Virus genome (UHGV): UHGV-0366526
Direction: 5' to 3' (one strand)
Source of the DNA: a virus
DNA length: 37,294 nucleotides
The notes beneath the pieces were generated by a model that saw nothing but the letters and a program-made list of their open reading frames with translations, searched no databases and had not been told where the DNA came from. Of this stretch, positions 14,165 to 33,524 are shown in pieces; position 1 is the stretch's first letter; the number at the start of each line of letters is the position of its first letter. The position numbers and the translations under genes were made by a program.

Positions 14165-14374
14165 ATGATTGAAGAGTTTGTGAGAGGTTTATTAACGAAT
14201 CCAGAGCAAGTAACGTTTACTACTCTATTTGTTGGTTTATTTATTTGGGTGATGAAACAAAATAGTGATCGCGAACGTAATTATCAAGAAACAATTGGAA
14301 AGCTTGCGGACTCGTTAAAAGATGTTGAGGACATCAAGACGACAGTAGAAAAAATTCATGAAAAATTAAATTGA
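14165..14374 (+). CDS. Holin
   Basis: 69-aa ORF with one predicted transmembrane helix (VTFTTLFVGLFIWVM) and a charged coiled C-terminus, immediately upstream of the endolysin. Confidence 0.55.
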   Translation: MIEEFVRGLLTNPEQVTFTTLFVGLFIWVMKQNSDRERNYQETIGKLADSLKDVEDIKTTVEKIHEKLN

Positions 14375-14426: not shown

Positions 14427-15533
14427 ATGAAAAAAACTGTTAAATTATTAGTAGCTGGCGCAATGACCTTAGGTTTGATGTTACCAGTTGGCGTAGATGC
14501 TTATCAAATTGAACAAGACCCAATCAATTTTGGCGGTTATTTTCCTGGCTATGCAACCAATGAATTGATTGTATTGCATGAGTCAGGAAATGGAAACAAT
14601 GTCGGTCCAAATAGTTTAGACAATGAAACAGCATATATGAAACGAAACTGGCAAAATGCGTACGTTTCATATTTTGTTGGTTCTGGTGGACGCGTGAAAC
14701 AATTAGCACCAGCTGGTCAAATTCAGTGGGGCGCAGGACCAACAGCGAATGCAAAAGCCTATGCTCAAATCGAATTAGCACGAACAAATAACAAAGAAAC
14801 GTTCAAGAAAGACTATGCAGCCTATGTTAATTTGATTCGTGATTTAGCAACTCAAATCGGCGCAACATTTGATTTAGATGATGGTACAGGTTATGGGATT
14901 GTAACTCACGATTGGGTTACCAAAACTTGGTGGGGAGATCACACCGACCCTTACGGTTATTTAGCAAGTTGGGGAATTAGTAAAGCACAATTAGCACAAG
15001 ACTTACAAACTGGACTTCCAGAAGACGGTCATGATGTTATTGTAAACCCCGGCAAACCAAACAAGCCTAAATATAAAGTAGGGCAGAATGTTCGCTTTAC
15101 AACAATCTACAAAACTCCAGATGCGCCAATCGAGCAACATATCAATGCAAATACTTTATGGACACAAGTTGGTACAATCACACAGAAATTAGATGGTCGT
15201 AAAAACCTATATCGGATTGAAAATAGCGGTAAATTATTAGGCTATGCAAACGATGGAGATATTGCGGAGCTTTGGGAAAATAGCAAACCGAAACCAGCTA
15301 AAGTTTTTACTATCGGTGTAAATGAAGGAATTGTATTACGTGCTGGCTCACCTAGTCTATATGCGCCAGTATATGGTATTTGGCCAAAAGGCGCACAATT
15401 CCGATATGATTCTGCTCACGTGGCAGATGGCTATGTTTGGCTAGGTGGAACAGACTCAAACGGAACAAGAATTTACATTCCGGTTGGTCCAAATGATGGT
15501 GATCCAAATAATACTTGGGGAACTGGTTATTAG
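14427..15533 (+). CDS. Endolysin: N-acetylmuramoyl-L-alanine amidase (PGRP/Amidase_2-like) with N-terminal signal peptide and two C-terminal SH3b-like repeats
   Basis: The N-terminus MKKTVKLLVAGAMTLGLMLPVGVDA-YQ has n-, h- and c-regions with an AXA-like cleavage site. The central block HESGNG...WVTKTWWGDHTDPYGY is an amidase_2-type catalytic region. The C-terminus carries two roughly 65-aa repeats (YKVGQNVRF... / FTIGVNEGIVLRAG...) typical of SH3_5 wall-binding modules. Confidence 0.85.
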   Translation: MKKTVKLLVAGAMTLGLMLPVGVDAYQIEQDPINFGGYFPGYATNELIVLHESGNGNNVGPNSLDNETAYMKRNWQNAYVSYFVGSGGRVKQLAPAGQIQWGAGPTANAKAYAQIELARTNNKETFKKDYAAYVNLIRDLATQIGATFDLDDGTGYGIVTHDWVTKTWWGDHTDPYGYLASWGISKAQLAQDLQTGLPEDGHDVIVNPGKPNKPKYKVGQNVRFTTIYKTPDAPIEQHINANTLWTQVGTITQKLDGRKNLYRIENSGKLLGYANDGDIAELWENSKPKPAKVFTIGVNEGIVLRAGSPSLYAPVYGIWPKGAQFRYDSAHVADGYVWLGGTDSNGTRIYIPVGPNDGDPNNTWGTGY

Positions 15534-15559: not shown

Positions 15560-15643
15560 ATGTTAGCGGTCATACTTTCAATAATCGCATTGGCGTTAAG
15601 TTGTTTTTCGTGGGGATACAGAATTGGTAAAGAGAGTAAATAA
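15560..15643 (+). CDS. Candidate small hydrophobic peptide (27 aa)
   Basis: ATG at 15560 lies 7 nt after GGAGTG. Peptide is MLAVILSIIALALSCFSWGYRIGKESK: one transmembrane segment followed by a short charged tail. Confidence 0.25.
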   Translation: MLAVILSIIALALSCFSWGYRIGKESK

Positions 15644-15663: not shown

Positions 15664-15761
15664 TTGAAAAATCTCTCAAAATTTTTTATAATATCCTTAC
15701 ATTTGGTGCATTATTAAATTTCTCGTTCACACTCTATCAATGATTGATAGGGTGCTTTTTA
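15664..15761 (+). ncRNA. Candidate small RNA unit 0 (promoter to terminator)
   Basis: TTGAAA at 15664-15669, 17-nt spacer, TATAAT at 15687-15692. Then about 60 nt ending in the hairpin CACTCTATCAA(15730-15740)/TTGATAGGGTG(15744-15754) plus CTTTTTATT. No ORF. Confidence 0.35.
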
Positions 15762-15764
15762 TTG

Positions 15765-15895
15765 TTGAAATTTAGAATAAATAGGTTTAAAATATAGTTA
15801 CCTTTTAATAAATTCATAGTATGACCTTCTTTTATTAATAATACAAGAAGGGTGCACCTATCTTTTTCCAAGTCCTAAGATAGGTGCATTTTTTT
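15765..15895 (+). ncRNA. Candidate small RNA unit 1 (promoter to terminator)
   Basis: TTGAAA at 15765-15770, 17-nt spacer, TAAAAT at 15788-15793. The transcribed segment has an internal hairpin CCTTCTT...AAGAAGG and the terminator TGCACCTATCTT(15853-15864)/AAGATAGGTGCA(15877-15888) plus T7 (15889-15895). Confidence 0.4.
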
Positions 15896-15896
15896 A

Positions 15897-16010
15897 TTGA
15901 AATATTTCTAAAGCTTGTATAAAATAGTAATAGGCCTTTTTGGTAAAGGTTGCATGGTTTTCTCAATTGTAACGGAGCTCTCTATGTTTTATAGAGAGCT
16001 CTCTTTTTTT
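15897..16010 (+). ncRNA. Candidate small RNA unit 2 (promoter to terminator)
   Basis: TTGAAA at 15897-15902, 17-nt spacer, TAAAAT at 15920-15925. Small hairpin CCTTTttggtAAAGG, then terminator GAGCTCTCTAT(15975-15985)/ATAGAGAGCTC(15991-16001) plus TCTTTTTTT. Confidence 0.4.
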
Positions 16011-16011
16011 G

Positions 16012-16116
16012 TTGAAATTCAAAAAAGAAAGCGGTAAAATATATTCACCAAACAATTTTATTTTTCATTTTATTACTACCTCTTGCCGCCTTTCCCCAAT
16101 GAGGCGGCATCTTTTT
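16012..16116 (+). ncRNA. Candidate small RNA unit 3 (promoter to terminator)
   Basis: TTGAAA at 16012-16017, 17-nt spacer, TAAAAT at 16035-16040. Then about 70 nt of U/A-rich sequence containing ACCUCU, ending in TGCCGCCT(16084-16091)/AGGCGGCA(16102-16109) plus TCTTTTT. Confidence 0.4.
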
Positions 16117-16212
16117 ACATAAAGTTAAGCAAAAATATTAATTTTAAAGTTAGTAACAGCATAGAAGTTGATAAAAATTTATAGTATAATTTTTAAAAGA
16201 GAGGTGCATATT

Positions 16213-16401
16213 ATGAAACAATTTAAAGCTCGAAAGAAACCTGTTACAGTTAATGCGTATCAAACTAGTAAAAAAATAGAAATCAAAACAATAGAAGGGA
16301 TACTTACTGCTCAACCAGGTGATTATATAGTTACTGGCATCGATGGTGAACAATGGCCTGTAAAGAAATCTATTTTTGAAAAAACATATGAACGTATTTA
16401 G
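16213..16401 (+). CDS. Hypothetical small protein (62 aa)
   Basis: Track start is TTG 16168. ATG 16213 lies 8 nt after AGAGAGG. Product is MKQFKARKKPVTVNAYQ...AQPGDYIVTGIDGEQWPVKK... Its stop abuts the stop of the convergent TIR-like gene. Confidence 0.45.
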   Translation: MKQFKARKKPVTVNAYQTSKKIEIKTIEGILTAQPGDYIVTGIDGEQWPVKKSIFEKTYERI

Positions 16402-16995
16402 TTATTTAGGTCTAACTTTGGTTTTACTTGCTATCTTTTCAGAACGTTTGTCATATGCTTTATCAATATATTTTTCAGGATTATTTTTGAAATTTTCCCA
16501 AGAAACAAGAACACAGTATCGTTCCTCTTCAGACCAACCACATCCTGAAGTTTTAGGTATATAGTAGTTGTAACTAAACTCTTTAACAACTGTTGAATCA
16601 TCAATAACTACAGTGTTTATTTCATGGCCCTTTCCGCATGAACAAGTATGTTTACCTTGATAGATTTTGTCTTGCGTAGATGGCAGAACTACACCGAGAA
16701 TTCCATTTTTTGGATTATCTTTACTAGTATAAAGAGACGCTTGTAATTCTCGTTTGATATAATTTTGAATTTCAAAAGGATCATTTTCTGAACTATGGGA
16801 TCCAATCAAATGAATTGTCACTGTTGAGTCAGAAAGATAATCTTCTCTTATTTTCCTCATGATATAATCTTCGTCATCAGAATTTATCGGAATATTTAGA
16901 GATTTATCAACCATATCAATATTTAAATCTTCTTGGATTATCCTTTTAAATTCAGCATCTTCTGTTTTAAAAGAAATAAAGCATTTATGCCCCAT
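16402..16995 (-). CDS. TIR-like domain protein (ThsB / DUF1863-like)
   Basis: 197-aa ORF. N-terminus GHKCFISFKTEDAEF and block STVTIHLIGSHSS...GILGVVLP parallel the ThsB-type TIR-like pattern (VFFSFHYQD ... SVTCVLIGSQT ... KIIGIHI). Strong RBS on the minus strand (GGAGGAGtgacttaaATG). Second gene of a two-gene operon. Confidence 0.65.
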   Translation of the reverse strand: MGHKCFISFKTEDAEFKRIIQEDLNIDMVDKSLNIPINSDDEDYIMRKIREDYLSDSTVTIHLIGSHSSENDPFEIQNYIKRELQASLYTSKDNPKNGILGVVLPSTQDKIYQGKHTCSCGKGHEINTVVIDDSTVVKEFSYNYYIPKTSGCGWSEEERYCVLVSWENFKNNPEKYIDKAYDKRSEKIASKTKVRPK

Positions 16996-17011
16996 TTAAG
17001 TCACTCCTCCA

Positions 17012-17440
17012 TTATTTTTTATTATGTTCTTCATTTTTATTCAAGCTAGCCCAATTAAGATTTTCTTGTGATATAATACTTTCAATTCTTTCAACAAAAT
17101 AACTGAAATTACCATCGGCATATACACCAGATTGGCACAAGTACATGTATTTCTCATGTCTAAGGGTTTCACATACAGTACGATATTCAATCCATAGTTC
17201 ACTAAACTTATTAAAGTTAGATATGCCTTCTGTAATAGTAATAACCACACCTAAACAACTAATTGCTATTTTAAAAATTAGGTTCTGCGAAGTGAAGTTA
17301 GCAACAAAAGGTATTAACGCAGCAACAAGAATAACAATTGTTTTGCAAATAGTATTTCTTCTTTTAGCTTTTTTACTTTTTGTATCATACCATTCTATTT
17401 GCTGATCTACTCGGTCTCTTAAATAGTCTTTTTCATCCAT
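17012..17440 (-). CDS. DUF4231 / SLATT-type two-TM effector-like protein
   Basis: 142-aa ORF. N-terminal YLRDRVDQQIEWYDTKSKKAKRR, then two hydrophobic helices (ICKTIVILVAALIPFVANF and LIFKIAISCLGVVITITEGI), then an 60-aa cytoplasmic tail. RBS AAAAGAGGGGGAGattataATG on the minus strand. Confidence 0.6.
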   Translation of the reverse strand: MDEKDYLRDRVDQQIEWYDTKSKKAKRRNTICKTIVILVAALIPFVANFTSQNLIFKIAISCLGVVITITEGISNFNKFSELWIEYRTVCETLRHEKYMYLCQSGVYADGNFSYFVERIESIISQENLNWASLNKNEEHNKK

Positions 17441-17539: not shown

Positions 17540-17613
17540 GGACCATTAGCTCAGCTGGTTAGAGCAAACGGCTCATAACCGTTCGGTCACAGGTTCGAGT
17601 CCTGTATGGTCCA
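17540..17613 (+). tRNA. tRNA-Met (anticodon CAT; elongator-type; tRNA-Ile2(LAU) cannot be excluded)
   Basis: 74-nt cloverleaf. Acceptor GGACCAT/ATGGTCC with discriminator A. D-arm GCTC-AGCTGGTTA-GAGC. Anticodon stem AACGG/CCGTT with loop CTCATAA. T-arm ACAGG-TTCGAGT-CCTGT. G1-C72 is paired, so it is not an initiator. No encoded CCA. Confidence 0.85.
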
Positions 17614-18280: not shown

Positions 18281-18518
18281 TGACCATACTTTGACCATAC
18301 TCTTTAAGAAAATATAAAAACTATCAGAAGATAGAATTTAATACAAACGCCTATTTTATAAGTGTTGAAGAAAGTTAGAAGTTATTAGAAAAAATAAATC
18401 TTAAAGTATCAGTTTATCCAGTAGCTAACTAGTGTAATAGCTCAAGCCTTTGTTTATCAAAGGTTTGGGCTTTTTTTTGTTGGTTTGAAAAATATTTGAC
18501 CATACTTTTGACCATACT
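18281..18518. repeat. Two pairs of tandem TGACCATACT decamers (candidate integrase arm sites / attP region)
   Basis: TGACCATACTtTGACCATACT at 18281-18301 and TGACCATACTttTGACCATACT at 18497-18518, about 200 bp apart. The second pair abuts the integrase stop (18521). The AT-rich interval contains a stem-loop plus T8 at 18447-18478. Confidence 0.5.
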
Positions 18519-18520
18519 AG

Positions 18521-19675
18521 TTAAAAGCCGATGTATTTCGATAGTTTTTCGGTAGTTTTTTCTTTTCCATCATTTGTTAGATGTGTATAAGTATCTAAAG
18601 TTGTTTTTATGTTTGCATGTCCTAATCGTTCCTGAACTTCTTTATGATCTGCCCCAGCATAATATAATAAAGATGCATGCGTGTGTCTAAATCCGTGAAG
18701 CCCAATGTTTGGTAAGTTAGCCTTTTTACGATAAATATTATATCTATCTGTAATAGCTTGATTTATTGTAAATTCATTTTCTTCATTGGTGAAAATATGT
18801 GAGGGTTGTGTATAACCAAGTTTAAGAAGATATTTTTTTTGCTCTAATTTCCATTTTTTTAAGATAGTTATTGTTTTTGCATCTAATATTAGTGTTCTGT
18901 TTGATTTTTTTGTTTTTGGAGTATTTGATACATAATAATGGTCAGATTTAGCAATTGTTTTGTTGATTTGTAGTTCACCAGTTTTAATGTTTAAATCGTC
19001 CCAAGTAAGAGCTAACAACTCCCCTATCCTACATCCACTAAAAGCTAATAATCTGAATAATGTATAATCTCTTATTGTAATGTAGGTACTTTCGCTTTGT
19101 TCAATACTTTTTAAAAATATTTGAAGTTGATCTTTTGTATAAAATTTAATTTTCTTTTCTGATGTAATAATATCTTGATTTTTAGGAACTATTACATTAA
19201 TCACTGGGTTTTGATTGGTAACCCCTATGTTAATAGCGAATTTGAAGACTTGATTCATATAATTTATAAAAAGGGGATATTGTTTTGAACTACCTTTTGA
19301 ATGCCATGTATTCACGATTTTCTGACAATAAGCAGTTGAAATTTTTGATATTTCAATTTTTCCAAATGAAGGTAGTATGTGTTTTCTGAAAATTATTTCT
19401 GTTCGAGAGTAGCTACTTTCTTTTACGGTATTTTTATAATTTTCTAGCCACATAAATGCTACTTCTTGGAATGTTATATTAGTAGAAGAGGGAATACCAT
19501 TTTTTTGAATTTCCATTTCTAACCTTGCTAATGCAATTTTAGCCTCTTTTTGAGTGCGAAATCCTCTTTTAGTTGTATACTTCTTTTTTCCAGTTAGCGG
19601 ATCGGTACCAAGATATATTTTGAAGTACCATGCTTTTTCACCATTTTTCTTTTGATATTGTTTTATCATTGCCAT
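18521..19675 (-). CDS. int: Tyrosine site-specific integrase
   Basis: 384-aa ORF. The C-terminal catalytic region HGFRHTHASLLYYAGADHKEVQERLGHANIKTTLDTYTHL fits the R...HxxR...Y motif. N-terminal SAM-like/arm-binding domain. Confidence 0.9.
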   Translation of the reverse strand: MAMIKQYQKKNGEKAWYFKIYLGTDPLTGKKKYTTKRGFRTQKEAKIALARLEMEIQKNGIPSSTNITFQEVAFMWLENYKNTVKESSYSRTEIIFRKHILPSFGKIEISKISTAYCQKIVNTWHSKGSSKQYPLFINYMNQVFKFAINIGVTNQNPVINVIVPKNQDIITSEKKIKFYTKDQLQIFLKSIEQSESTYITIRDYTLFRLLAFSGCRIGELLALTWDDLNIKTGELQINKTIAKSDHYYVSNTPKTKKSNRTLILDAKTITILKKWKLEQKKYLLKLGYTQPSHIFTNEENEFTINQAITDRYNIYRKKANLPNIGLHGFRHTHASLLYYAGADHKEVQERLGHANIKTTLDTYTHLTNDGKEKTTEKLSKYIGF

Positions 19676-23526: not shown

Positions 23527-23862
23527 ATGAACGATAAAATTCAAAAAATGATTAAGAAACTAGCAAAAGAATGCCAGAAAGAGGATATAGGTTTATCTTT
23601 GGCCACTATCGATTCAGAAGGAGAATTGGCAATGGCTCAAGTTGGAGAAGATGCGATGGTAGCTATTGCTGCACATAGCCAATATACAGTAGTAAAAGAA
23701 GAACTAGCTGAATTAGATTGTGATTGTCCAATGCATCGTCACTTGAAAGAAATGTACGGTATTGAAACAGAAACTACAGCTAAAAATAAACATACTTTTG
23801 TAACAGATGATCCAAACGATTTGATAGATATATTATCGAAAATTTCTCGAGGTGAGTTGTAA
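23527..23862 (+). CDS. Hypothetical protein (CDCPMHRH motif)
   Basis: 111-aa ORF with RBS AGGAGagtataccaaaATG. Confidence 0.4.
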   Translation: MNDKIQKMIKKLAKECQKEDIGLSLATIDSEGELAMAQVGEDAMVAIAAHSQYTVVKEELAELDCDCPMHRHLKEMYGIETETTAKNKHTFVTDDPNDLIDILSKISRGEL

Positions 23863-24089
23863 TGATTGAAGTAAGAGGTTTGGGTAACGACATTTACGAA
23901 TTAATGTTAGCAAACGCACAGAATAACATTATTCAATCTGTTCGGACATCTGCATCTTATGGCAATACAAGTTGTGTGGTAAGCAGTAAAGGAGCTACAA
24001 AACCATTTTTAGATCAATTACAAATGCAAGGTGTCGATTATATCGAATTGGAAGATGAAAAAATAAAACTATTTTGGGAGGGATTGTAA
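23862..24089 (+). CDS. Hypothetical protein
   Basis: 75-aa ORF with ATGA coupling. Confidence 0.35.
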   Translation: MIEVRGLGNDIYELMLANAQNNIIQSVRTSASYGNTSCVVSSKGATKPFLDQLQMQGVDYIELEDEKIKLFWEGL

Positions 24090-31150: not shown

Positions 31151-31653
31151 TTAAACAAGAATTGATTGGTATTTTAGAAGGTTTAGAAGGTGATTCATTC
31201 ATCGAAAAGTACAACGAAGGATATGATCAAGCAGTTCGTGACTGTTTGATTGCAGTAAAACAACTTGACGAATCGAAAAAAACTGTATTGCCCAAAAAGG
31301 CCGATGACTTTATCAAAGAAGGCGAAGGCCTAGGTTCTGATAAAGTTGATATTATTGATTCAGCAATTTCTTTCGCAAGAGCAATGCCAAATGATGAATT
31401 TTCTTTGTGGTTTAAGTCGAATAGAAATTTATTTGTTAATGCATTAGCTAACGGCTACGAAGTCGAGAAGGAACCATTATATCATGTTTTATTACCAGAC
31501 AAAGGGGCGACTAACACAGGATATACTTTTTTAAATTTAACGGGAACAATTGATTTTACGATATGTAAGGAAAAGGTGGATATGTTAACAGAAAATCAAA
31601 TCAAAGCAATTGATGAGCGCTATTGGGCTTTTGCTGTGAAGGTGGAGGGATAA
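31147..31653 (+). CDS. Hypothetical phage protein (DUF1642-like by recall)
   Basis: ATG 31147 lies 7 nt after GAGGAGG (track start 31114 lacks an RBS). Product is 168 aa. Confidence 0.4.
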   Translation: MIKQELIGILEGLEGDSFIEKYNEGYDQAVRDCLIAVKQLDESKKTVLPKKADDFIKEGEGLGSDKVDIIDSAISFARAMPNDEFSLWFKSNRNLFVNALANGYEVEKEPLYHVLLPDKGATNTGYTFLNLTGTIDFTICKEKVDMLTENQIKAIDERYWAFAVKVEG

Positions 31654-33452: not shown

Positions 33453-33524
33453 TGGGATATAGCTTAACTGGTAGAGCAGCGGTCTCCAAAACCGTCGGTA
33501 TAGGTTCGAGTCCTATTGTTCCAG
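33453..33524 (+). tRNA. tRNA-Trp (anticodon CCA)
   Basis: 72-nt cloverleaf. Acceptor TGGGATA/TGTTCCA (U1-A72, two G-U pairs), U8. D-arm GCTT-AACTGGTA-GAGC. Anticodon stem GCGGT/ACCGT with loop CTCCAAA. Variable loop CGGT. T-arm ATAGG-TTCGAGT-CCTAT. Discriminator G, as in bacterial tRNA-Trp. Confidence 0.75.

What the first reader, a model, noticed from the sequence alone, without database searches (positions are those of the whole stretch)
15664..16116. Four tandem consensus promoter / hairpin / terminator mini-units with no ORFs (candidate phage sRNA cluster)
Within 450 bp after the lysis genes there are four consecutive units. Each has a TTGAAA -35, an exactly 17-nt spacer and a TATAAT or TAAAAT -10 (at 15664/15687, 15765/15788, 15897/15920 and 16012/16035). 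Each is followed by 55-95 nt and then a strong GC-stem intrinsic terminator with a U-run (ending near 15761, 15895, 16010 and 16116). None contains a plausible RBS-led ORF. Each terminator's T-run runs directly into the next -35. Units 0 and 1 share GGTGCATT and GATAGGGTGC/GATAGGTGCA motifs. Unit 3 has an exposed CU-rich ACCUCU stretch that could act as an anti-Shine-Dalgarno. Four perfect-spacing near-consensus sigma-A promoters in a row are very unlikely by chance and imply abundant short transcripts from the lysogen or the phage. Possible roles are regulatory RNAs, antitoxin-like RNAs or decoys.
Basis: seen in the sequence. Interest (0 to 1): 0.6.

Follow-up and report, generated by a model that had tools for sequence, protein, structure and literature searches.

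The report
Prophage array of small-RNA genes
Four self-contained small-RNA genes sit back to back after the lysis genes of an Enterococcus faecalis temperate phage; relatives of two of them are already mapped as abundant transcripts in a lysogen, and one copies the 5' end of a core host regulator, but what they regulate is unknown.

Summary
TTGAAA-N17-TAWAAT occurs four times in the 37-kb window, all on the + strand at 15664-16040 (0.2 expected). Each promoter is followed by a 62-96-nt ORF-free stretch and an intrinsic terminator whose T-run abuts the next -35.

The window is a temperate E. faecalis phage. The array lies in its cargo region between the lysin and attP/integrase.

Related phages carry 2-8 such units. 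Whole promoter-to-terminator cassettes are swapped at the T-run/-35 junction.

U1 has 19 variants with conserved hexamers, a fixed 17-nt spacer and compensatory stem changes.

Published dRNA-seq of strain V583 (Michaux 2020) maps primary start sites at the predicted +1 of the U1 and U3 homologues. These are sRNA_087 and sRNA_086, ranked 8th and 13th in abundance. So discrete short transcripts exist for these two families. U0 and U2 have no such evidence.

U3's first 26 nt match the conserved single-stranded 5' end of core Enterococcus sRNA 84. U3 does not meet that Rfam family's threshold.

No target was found. Antitoxin, leader, peptide and insulator readings fit worse.

Verdict: catalogued but uncharacterised prophage sRNA genes, organised as a shuffling cassette array. 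Moderate interest.

The parts
15664..15760 (+). Unit U0. Promoter 15664-15692 (TTGAAA-17-TATAAT); predicted start about 15699; roughly 62-nt RNA; terminator stem 15730-15754 with T-run 15756-15760. It is also the first terminator downstream of the late (lysis) operon.
   Evidence: Nearly identical copies follow other lysins in L005, L009, L013, L179, L180 and L187. No expression data.
15765..15895 (+). Unit U1. Promoter 15765-15793; start at A15800 (ACCUUUU...); 96-nt RNA with an internal hairpin at 15825-15851; terminator hairpin about 15852-15889 with the conserved loop CCAAGUCCUAAG; T-run 15889-15895.
   Evidence: Found in 44 loci with 19 distinct variants. Six of 20 pairs have compensatory changes, 97% of cells are paired, and the covariation score is 0.265 against 0.140 in shuffles, 0/500. 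Promoter hexamers are 0.95/0.92 identical against 0.71 for the spacer. The V583 homologue is sRNA_087; its TSS 1926408 has the type-B U1 promoter upstream.
15897..16010 (+). Unit U2. Promoter 15897-15925; predicted start about 15932; roughly 79-nt RNA; 13-bp terminator stem 15974-16002; T-run 16004-16010.
   Evidence: Identical copies in L184, L187, L188, L190 and L194. One diverged homologue in L195. Absent from IMG/VR by exact pattern. No expression data.
16012..16116 (+). Unit U3. Promoter 16012-16040; start at A16047 (ACCAAACAAUUUUAUUUUUCAUUUUA...); 70-nt RNA made of a 37-nt unstructured, U-rich 5' tail with a CU-rich stretch (16076-16085) and a terminator hairpin 16084-16109 with a C-rich loop; T-run 16112-16116.
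   Evidence: Present in more than 20 phage or prophage loci and on plasmids. The V583 homologue is sRNA_086; its TSS 1924736 has the U3 promoter upstream. The 5' 26 nt match the 5' end of sRNA 84.

Best explanation
The interval is an array of four separate small non-coding RNA genes. Each is a cassette made of a housekeeping-sigma promoter, a 62-96-nt untranslated transcript and an intrinsic terminator. The array sits in the accessory (moron) region of a temperate E. faecalis siphophage, between the lysis cassette and attP/integrase.

Shown here: the signals are real and non-random. The units are exchanged among phages as whole cassettes at the shared T-run/TTGAAAT junction. U1 is under selection for RNA structure. 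The U1 and U3 homologues are abundant, discrete primary transcripts in a growing lysogen.

Inferred: the RNAs are made constitutively from the prophage. They act in trans by base-pairing through their unstructured 5' tails, their CU-rich stretches that resemble the 16S anti-Shine-Dalgarno sequence, and their C-rich terminator loops. The likely binding sites are translation-initiation regions of host mRNAs, or of rival phages. This would amount to lysogenic conversion at the RNA level.

Also inferred: U3 carries the same 5' tail as the core regulator sRNA 84, so it probably contacts part of that RNA's target set, the cell-wall WxL/LPXTG/mucin-binding operons. The U0 terminator additionally ends the late operon.
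For: Signals:
- Exactly 4 TTGAAA-N17-TAWAAT sites in the window, all here, against 0.2 expected.
- Four terminators, and fold z-scores of -3.3 to -5.4.

Modularity:
- Upstream of an identical PGDYG-TIR-SLATT cassette the arrays read U0-U1-U2-U3, U1-U2'-U3 or U1-U3.
- Other phages carry 7-8 units.
- The 99.5% block shared with phage IME197 starts at 16012, the first base of the U3 -35.
- A strict two-unit pattern hits only 19 places in 2.9 million viral contigs, and 17 of them belong to this family.

Selection:
- U1 hexamers are 0.95/0.92 identical against 0.71 for the spacer, and the spacing is always 17.
- Six of 20 U1 pairs show compensatory changes, and 0 of 500 shuffles reach the covariation score.

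Expression (Michaux 2020, PMC7724050, Tables S1 and S7):
- The 50 nt upstream of V583 TSS 1926408 and of TSS 1924736 are the U1 and U3 promoters.
- The transcripts, sRNA_087 (88 nt) and sRNA_086 (78 nt), end at predicted terminators and rank 8th and 13th in coverage.
- The neighbouring genes (hemH, cspC, a minor head protein gene) place them at the end of a V583 prophage.

Non-coding: indels of 1, 3 and 8 nt separate variants, and no start codon is conserved.

Link to sRNA 84:
- The top Rfam hit is RF02846.
- Twenty-six identities over the first 32 nt of E. faecalis sRNA 84; score 39 against 19.6 +/- 3.4 in shuffles, 0/2000; it is the only such site in the window.
- The match is also the reciprocal best in 197 kb of Enterococcus DNA.
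- That 5' region is the conserved single-stranded part proposed as the binding site (bioRxiv 10.1101/2025.11.10.687296).
Against: - No target was identified. Nothing else in the phage is complementary beyond chance by BLAST.
- The best RNAduplex leads are not consistent. U1 against the PGDYG ribosome-binding site gives -28.9 kcal/mol, but other U1 variants give -20 and -15.8 against the same site.
- U0 and U2 have no expression evidence. U2 is rare.
- Some U3 variants lack the CAU or the CCUCU stretch, or have a different first 14 nt. The 'seed' is therefore not universally kept.
- The sRNA 84 similarity is short and A+T-rich. It is not significant by nhmmer (E 0.36) and is far below the Rfam gathering score (27.7 against 52).
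- In V583, sRNA 84 is about 25-fold more abundant than the U3 homologue.
- The host genome could not be searched for targets.
Confidence: 0.6

Rival explanations
1. Insulators with no RNA function. The hairpins are a stack of terminators that stop late-operon read-through into the cargo genes. The promoters are leftovers of morons whose genes were lost. The short RNAs are by-products.
For: The U0 terminator is the first one after the lysis genes. The region is a recombination hot spot full of swapped modules. Some U3 variants look decayed. No target was found.
Against: The internal, non-terminator hairpin of U1 keeps pairing through 5 double changes in 8 pairs. Promoter hexamers and spacing are conserved while the spacers drift. 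The transcribed 5' tails are among the best-conserved parts. The V583 transcripts are among the most abundant sRNAs. One terminator would be enough to insulate.
Confidence: 0.15
2. RNA antitoxins or anti-defence decoys. The RNAs neutralise a small toxic peptide, either the adjacent 27-aa hydrophobic ORF or toxins encoded elsewhere, or they counter an RNA-guided or RNA-sensing host defence.
For: A 27-aa hydrophobic peptide gene with a strong ribosome-binding site lies directly upstream at 15560-15643. The complements of the U1 and U3 5' tails resemble translation-initiation regions, with a Shine-Dalgarno sequence plus AUG (sequence reading). Defence genes lie next door.
Against: No unit shares more than 9 complementary nt with the peptide gene. 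U0 occurs without the peptide in L005, L009, L013, L179 and L187. Arrays occur without the TIR-SLATT cassette, as in L010. There is no Rfam match to known antitoxin RNAs.
Confidence: 0.08
3. Cis-acting leaders or precursors. The units are attenuators or processed 5' leaders of whatever lies downstream, either the PGDYG-TIR-SLATT genes or the phage tRNA-Met.
For: The annotation pipeline of Michaux 2020 assigned the U3 and U4 start sites to tRNA-Met-8 as 5'UTRs of 270 and 155 nt. The PGDYG gene has only a weak -35 of its own. The U1 5' tail can pair with the PGDYG ribosome-binding site.
Against: The same units precede different downstream features: PGDYG, U4 plus tRNA-Met, a csp region, or plasmid DNA. 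In V583 the transcripts end at their own terminators, and the tRNA has its own start site at 1924522. Each unit has a strong terminator and there is no alternative antiterminator fold.
Confidence: 0.07
4. The units encode very small peptides on either strand.
For: Mechanical ORFs of 30-44 aa overlap the array on both strands. The complement of U3 contains AAGAGG-N9-ATG followed by 7 codons.
Against: The ORFs start with TTG, lack ribosome-binding sites and cross cassette junctions that differ between phages. Variants differ by indels that are not multiples of three, and they lose the ATGs.
Confidence: 0.03

Closest known systems
E. faecalis V583 sRNA_087, sRNA_086 and sRNA_085 (Michaux et al. 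2020, PMC7724050; the first two flagged there as previously reported)
   Same: The promoter sequences printed upstream of their start sites are those of U1 (type B), U3 and the U3 paralogue U4. The start sites fall at the predicted +1. The sizes of 88, 78 and 66 nt fit. They lie at the end of a V583 prophage next to hemH.
   Different: They are listed only as catalogue entries without function. They are not described there as a phage-borne cassette array. V583 has a U1-...-U3-U4-tRNA arrangement spread over 1.9 kb. The window has four contiguous units including U0 and U2, for which there is no counterpart in that data set.
Enterococcus sRNA 84 (Rfam RF02846, Ref84; V583 sRNA_081)
   Same: The first 26 nt of U3 align with nt 2-32 of sRNA 84 (ACCA..AACAA..UUUUAUUUUUCAUUUUA). 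A CU-rich stretch and a terminator follow in both. Both RNAs carry this block at or within 2 nt of their 5' end.
   Different: U3 lacks stem-loop 1, a 15-nt deletion. It scores 27.7 bits against a gathering score of 52. It is phage-borne and strain-specific rather than core and syntenic. It has a different promoter and terminator. No canonical sRNA 84 copy exists in 2.9 million viral contigs. Shared descent and convergence cannot be told apart.
Sibling sRNA arrays of Firmicutes, for example Listeria LhrC1-4 (own knowledge)
   Same: Tandem same-strand sRNA genes, each with its own promoter and terminator. CU/C-rich motifs that could pair with ribosome-binding sites of surface-protein mRNAs.
   Different: LhrC copies are near-identical paralogues in the core chromosome under one regulator. 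Here the units are mostly unrelated in sequence, phage-borne, and vary in number and order between phages.
Prophage-encoded trans-acting sRNAs and anti-sRNAs (S. aureus SprD in the Sa3 phage immune-evasion cluster, E. coli DicF, EHEC AgvB/AsxR of Tree et al. 2014; own knowledge)
   Same: Small RNAs carried in phage accessory regions, expressed in the lysogen, acting on host mRNAs or host sRNAs. The position downstream of the lysin mirrors SprD.
   Different: Those are single genes with demonstrated targets. Here there is an array of 4 (up to 8) cassettes with no demonstrated target.
Phage morons (a promoter-gene-terminator unit inserted in a late region; own knowledge)
   Same: Autonomous promoter and terminator, location at the end of the late operon, and mosaic distribution among related phages.
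   Different: The cargo is a non-coding RNA rather than a protein gene.

Membership tests
Rfam RF02846 (Enterococcus sRNA 84) | Covariance-model score at or above the curated gathering score (52 bits) | tested here: not met
   U3 at 16046-16116 scores 27.7 bits, E 0.37. There is no hit at the gathering threshold anywhere in the window.
Rfam RF02846 (Enterococcus sRNA 84) | Conserved single-stranded 5' region | tested here: met
   Twenty-six identities with 2 gaps over the first 32 nt. Score 39 against shuffles of 19.6 +/- 3.4, 0/2000. Reciprocal best hit in 197 kb. nhmmer alone is not significant, E 0.36.
Rfam RF02846 (Enterococcus sRNA 84) | Two stem-loops (an internal hairpin plus a terminator) | tested here: not met
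   U3 has only the terminator hairpin. The 15 nt of stem-loop 1 are absent.
Rfam RF02846 (Enterococcus sRNA 84) | Core, syntenic chromosomal locus across Enterococcaceae | tested here: not met
   U3 lies in phage cargo regions and on plasmids. Canonical sRNA 84 is absent from viral contigs.
V583 sRNA_087 family (U1) | Same promoter, start site and two-hairpin transcript | tested here: met
   The 50 nt upstream of V583 TSS 1926408 are identical to the type-B U1 promoter in L006 and L008. The window U1 is a type-A variant of the same alignment.
V583 sRNA_086 family (U3) | Same promoter, start site and transcript | tested here: met
   The 50 nt upstream of V583 TSS 1924736 equal the U3 promoter of L007. 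The window differs at 3 positions in the promoter region shown.
Autonomous bacterial sRNA gene | Own promoter, own intrinsic terminator and no coding capacity | tested here: met
Autonomous bacterial sRNA gene | A discrete transcript detected from this very sequence | not testable with these tools
   Only homologues of U1 and U3 have published dRNA-seq evidence. There is none for U0 or U2.
Trans-acting base-pairing sRNA | An identified mRNA target with a complementary site | tested here: inconclusive
   Within the phage there are only leads: U1 against 16183-16229, U2 against 31605-31644, and U3 against 23848-23884. The host genome was not available.
Type I toxin-antitoxin (RNA antitoxin) | Extended complementarity to the mRNA of an adjacent small hydrophobic toxin | tested here: not met
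   At most 9 nt are shared with the peptide gene at 15560-15643. U0 occurs without the peptide.
Sibling sRNA array (LhrC-like) | Tandem units that are paralogues sharing a seed | tested here: inconclusive
   The tandem layout is met. U0 and U1 share their terminator arms, and U3 and U4 are paralogues. The terminator loops of U1, U2', U3 and U4 share a YCCCAAK-like motif. The 5' regions of U0-U3 are unrelated.
Phage moron | A promoter-and-terminator-flanked insert in the late region that varies among related phages | tested here: met
   The cargo is RNA rather than protein.

The most novel reading that the evidence does not exclude
E. faecalis temperate phages carry a recombining library of sRNA cassettes. 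A common junction sequence (terminator T-run plus TTGAAAT) lets phages gain, lose and reorder the cassettes. At least one cassette, U3, mimics the seed of the most abundant core regulator, sRNA 84. A prophage could then rewire, or compete for, the host's cell-surface adhesin and colonisation regulon at the RNA level. That would be a form of lysogenic conversion, or of superinfection control, not yet described in Gram-positive bacteria.
Probability: 0.15. Interest if true: 0.75.

Novelty: new member of a known kind. Interest (0 to 1): 0.45.

Why it matters
Prophage-encoded regulatory RNAs are well studied in enterobacteria but barely at all in enterococci, where prophages contribute to colonisation and virulence. 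Three points follow from this work.

- Several abundant but unexplained 'sRNAs' of E. faecalis V583 turn out to be phage cargo that comes in exchangeable cassettes.
- The cassettes are common in clinical-type strains. The linked PGDYG-TIR-SLATT module alone is indexed in 720 blocks of the public assembly collection.
- One cassette shares the proposed binding region of sRNA 84, which was recently linked to mucin adhesion and gut colonisation.

The last point gives a directly testable hypothesis: lysogeny may modulate the sRNA 84 regulon. If the RNAs prove inert, the array still documents how promoter/terminator junctions serve as recombination points in phage mosaicism.

Tried and rejected
- Rfam at gathering thresholds found only two tRNAs in the window and only tRNAs in nine related loci. 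Permissive Rfam searches gave sub-threshold hits only. The Ref84 hit was followed up. The Ref1C hit to another unit in L013 (22.9 bits against 90) was dismissed.
- nhmmer with a profile of 19 sRNA 84 sequences does not give a significant hit to U3. The claim rests on the pairwise shuffle test and the covariance model.
- BLAST of the four RNAs against the window found no extended antisense partner.
- The type I antitoxin reading was rejected for lack of complementarity. The coding reading was rejected on indels and junction-crossing ORFs.
- A link to the neighbouring TIR-SLATT defence genes was rejected, because arrays occur without those genes.
- Extra sRNA-84 copies in other Enterococcus species are not in recognisable prophage contexts.
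- One viral scan used too loose a pattern and returned mostly chance hits.
- Exact searches for U2 found nothing in IMG/VR and one metagenome contig identical to the window.
- Canonical sRNA 84 is absent from viral contigs.
- Literature searches found no paper describing these arrays. The Grad-seq paper and the two older V583 sRNA papers do not discuss these loci in their main text.
- No covariance model was built. The Rfam model and the direct alignments answered the question.

Full report
OBSERVATION. The four promoter-like sites lie at the stated coordinates: 15664-15692, 15765-15793, 15897-15925 and 16012-16040, all on the + strand. The pattern TTGAAA-N17-TAWAAT occurs exactly four times in the 37,294-base window on either strand, and all four are here. 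Dinucleotide shuffles give 0.20 on average and never reach four. Each site is followed by an intrinsic terminator. The stems are at 15730-15754, about 15852-15889, 15974-16002 and 16084-16109. The second was missed by the simple scan because of its 12-nt loop, but RNAfold finds it. The predicted transcripts fold better than their shuffles, with z from -3.3 to -5.4. The T-runs touch the next -35. Only TTG-started ORFs without ribosome-binding sites overlap the interval.

CONTEXT. The window is a temperate Enterococcus faecalis siphophage, apparently a circularly permuted whole genome.
- Order of features: structural genes; BhlA-type holin (14165-14374); amidase/SH3_5 lysin (14427-15533); a 27-aa hydrophobic ORF (15560-15643); the array; a 62-aa PGDYG protein (16213-16401); a ThsB-like TIR protein and a SLATT/DUF4231 protein on the minus strand (16402-17440); tRNA-Met (17540-17613); two small ORFs; an integrase on the minus strand (18521-19675); then the lysogeny, replication and terminase genes.
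- In chromosomal relatives the DNA after the two small ORFs is host DNA (L188). This places attP between about 18221 and 18520.
- The array therefore lies in the cargo region between lysis and attP.

COMPARATIVE ANATOMY. U3 and U1 occur in dozens of IMG/VR prophage contigs, in isolated phage IME197, in NCBI chromosomes and on plasmids. The arrays differ by whole cassettes.
- Upstream of an identical PGDYG-TIR-SLATT module I found three arrangements. One is peptide-U0-U1-U2-U3 (the window, L184, L188, L190, L194), or U0-U1-U2-U3 without the peptide (L187). Another is U1-U2'-U3 (IME197, L185 and others). The third is U1-U3 (L189).
- Other phages carry seven or eight units (L005, L009, L013, L179).
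- In many phages U3 is followed by a paralogue U4. A TTGAAA-17-TAAAAT promoter then drives a phage tRNA-Met.
- Junctions always fall between a T-run and (G/A)TTGAAAT.
- The 99.5% identical block shared with IME197 begins at 16012, the first base of the U3 -35, and ends at the 3' end of the tRNA.
- A strict two-unit pattern finds 19 places in 2.9 million viral contigs. Seventeen belong to this Enterococcus family and two are unrelated coding repeats.

SELECTION ON PROMOTERS AND STRUCTURE.
- Among 13 distinct U1 promoter regions the -35 and -10 hexamers are 0.95 and 0.92 identical. The spacer is 0.71 identical and the upstream 12 nt are 0.58. The spacing is always 17.
- The 12 distinct U1 transcripts aligned fall into three subtypes. 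All keep an internal hairpin and a terminator hairpin. 97% of cells are paired, 6 of 20 pairs have changes on both sides (5 of 8 in the internal hairpin), and no shuffle reaches the covariation score. These changes stem from about three lineages, so they are few events.
- U3 is a long unstructured 5' tail plus a terminator, with little informative covariation.
- Indels of 1, 3 and 8 nt and the loss of ATGs among variants argue against coding.

EXPERIMENTAL EVIDENCE FROM THE LITERATURE. Michaux et al. 2020 (PMC7724050) mapped primary 5' ends in E. faecalis V583 and printed the 50 nt upstream of each start site.
- The sequence upstream of TSS 1926408(-) is the type-B U1 promoter, with the start at the A of ACCUUUU.
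- The sequence upstream of TSS 1924736(-) is the U3 promoter, with the start at the A of ACCAAAC.
- TSS 1924621(-) has the U4 promoter. TSS 1924522(-) has the promoter of tRNA-Met-8.
- The neighbouring genes are EF1989 (ferrochelatase), EF1991 (cspC) and EF2015 (a minor head protein gene), which places these sites at the end of a V583 prophage.
- The corresponding sRNA_087 (88 nt), sRNA_086 (78 nt) and sRNA_085 (66 nt) rank 8th, 13th and 18th in coverage among about 150 predicted sRNAs. The first two end at predicted terminators and are flagged as already reported earlier.
- Homologues of two of the four units are therefore discrete, abundant primary transcripts in a growing lysogen. The promoter sequences of U0, U2 and four other cassette types are not in that table.
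- These RNAs are not discussed in the main text of that paper or of the other enterococcal sRNA papers I could read.

LINK TO sRNA 84.
- The best Rfam match of the interval, though below threshold, is U3 to RF02846, Enterococcus sRNA 84 (27.7 bits against 52).
- I retrieved sRNA 84 from E. faecalis and 18 other enterococcal loci.
- The first 26 nt of U3 align with nt 2-32 of sRNA 84, with 26 identities and two gaps. The score is 39 against 19.6 +/- 3.4 for dinucleotide shuffles (0 of 2000). Only windows that overlap U3 reach that score anywhere in the phage. In 197 kb of enterococcal DNA the sRNA 84 sites are the top hits for the U3 tail.
- U0, U1 and U2 show nothing, and U4 is marginal.
- U3 lacks stem-loop 1 of sRNA 84. 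nhmmer alone is not significant. No canonical sRNA 84 copy exists in viral contigs.
- The shared block is the conserved single-stranded 5' region that the sRNA 84 study proposes as the target-binding part. That study links sRNA 84 to WxL/LPXTG/mucin-binding surface proteins and to gut colonisation.
- In V583, sRNA 84 (sRNA_081) is the most abundant sRNA, about 25 times the U3 homologue.
- Some U3 variants have lost parts of the block.
- I file U3 as resembling sRNA 84, not as a member of that family.

MECHANISM.
- Shown: these are autonomous, conserved transcription units. Two of the families are expressed.
- Inferred: they act in trans by base-pairing. The candidate contact sites are the unstructured 5' tails, the CU-rich stretches that resemble the 16S anti-Shine-Dalgarno sequence (U1 ACCUUCUUUU and CACCUAUCUUUU; U3 CUACCUCUUGCC), and the C-rich terminator loops shared by U1, U2', U3 and U4.
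- Inside the phage there are only leads. The U1 tail pairs with the ribosome-binding site of the PGDYG gene at -28.9 kcal/mol. That is the second-best of 6,206 genome windows once the trivial matches to U1's own antisense strand are set aside. Other U1 subtypes pair much less well with the same site. U2 pairs with 31605-31644, and U3 with 23848-23884.
- The host genome could not be scanned, so the likely real targets are untested.

RIVALS.
- A terminator stack with orphan promoters does not explain the covarying internal hairpin, the conserved tails or the abundance.
- An antitoxin role lacks complementarity to the adjacent peptide gene, and U0 occurs without that peptide.
- A leader role conflicts with the variable downstream partners and with the discrete 3' ends seen in V583.
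- Peptide coding conflicts with the indel pattern.

VERDICT. The thing is a prophage sRNA cassette array. Two of its members belong to families already catalogued, without function, in V583. The cassette organisation, the phage linkage and the resemblance to sRNA 84 appear not to have been described in the papers I could search.

Noticed in passing
window 15560-15643 (+): A 27-aa hydrophobic ORF (MLAVILSIIALALSCFSWGYRIGKESK) with a GGAG ribosome-binding site lies directly after the lysin and before U0. It is also present in L180 and L184 but absent from other arrays that start with U0. There is no Pfam or PHROG match.
   Followed up: partly
window 16213-17440: A cassette of a PGDYG small protein (+), a ThsB-like TIR protein (-) and a SLATT/DUF4231 membrane protein (-). 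It looks like a Thoeris-like defence module. It is linked to at least five different lysis modules in E. faecalis prophages and is indexed in 720 blocks of the assembly collection. An Abi_2 gene often lies nearby.
   Followed up: partly
window 17540-17613 (+); L010, L183, L199: A phage-borne tRNA-Met. In relatives it is driven by the same TTGAAA-17-TAAAAT promoter type, through a roughly 60-nt leader whose hairpin loop resembles those of U3 and U4. In the window that promoter and U4 are replaced by the TIR-SLATT cassette. In several prophages a hybrid tRNA-like sequence sits at the junction with hemH.
   Followed up: partly
window 18282-18303 and 18496-18517: Direct repeats of TTGACCATACT flank a terminator just upstream of the integrase gene. 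They are candidate arm-type integrase-binding sites of attP.
   Followed up: no
window 16183-16229; 31605-31644; 23848-23884: These are the best in-phage duplex partners of U1 (the ribosome-binding site of the PGDYG gene, -28.9 kcal/mol), U2 (just upstream of the Shine-Dalgarno sequence of ORF 31657, -34.6) and U3 (the initiation region of ORF 23862, -25.5). All are outliers against genome-wide windows but none is validated.
   Followed up: partly
L182 2280-2720 (plasmid LR962543.1 and three similar 235-240-kb conjugative plasmids): A block of a U1 terminator remnant, U2', a U3 variant (83% identical, with a degraded -35) and U4 sits on large conjugative E. faecalis plasmids.
   Followed up: no
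L139, L142, L143, L149, L155, L158: Enterococcus larvae and two unnamed Enterococcus species each carry three copies of sRNA 84. The 5' 55 nt are identical but the promoters and terminators differ. The flanking genes look chromosomal, not phage.
   Followed up: partly
V583 coordinate 1924816 (+), from Michaux 2020 Table S1: A weak antisense start site lies in the spacer between the U2' and U3 homologues and points back into U2'.
   Followed up: no
window 33453-33524 (+): A second phage tRNA gene (tRNA-Trp) lies in the early/late regulatory region.
   Followed up: no
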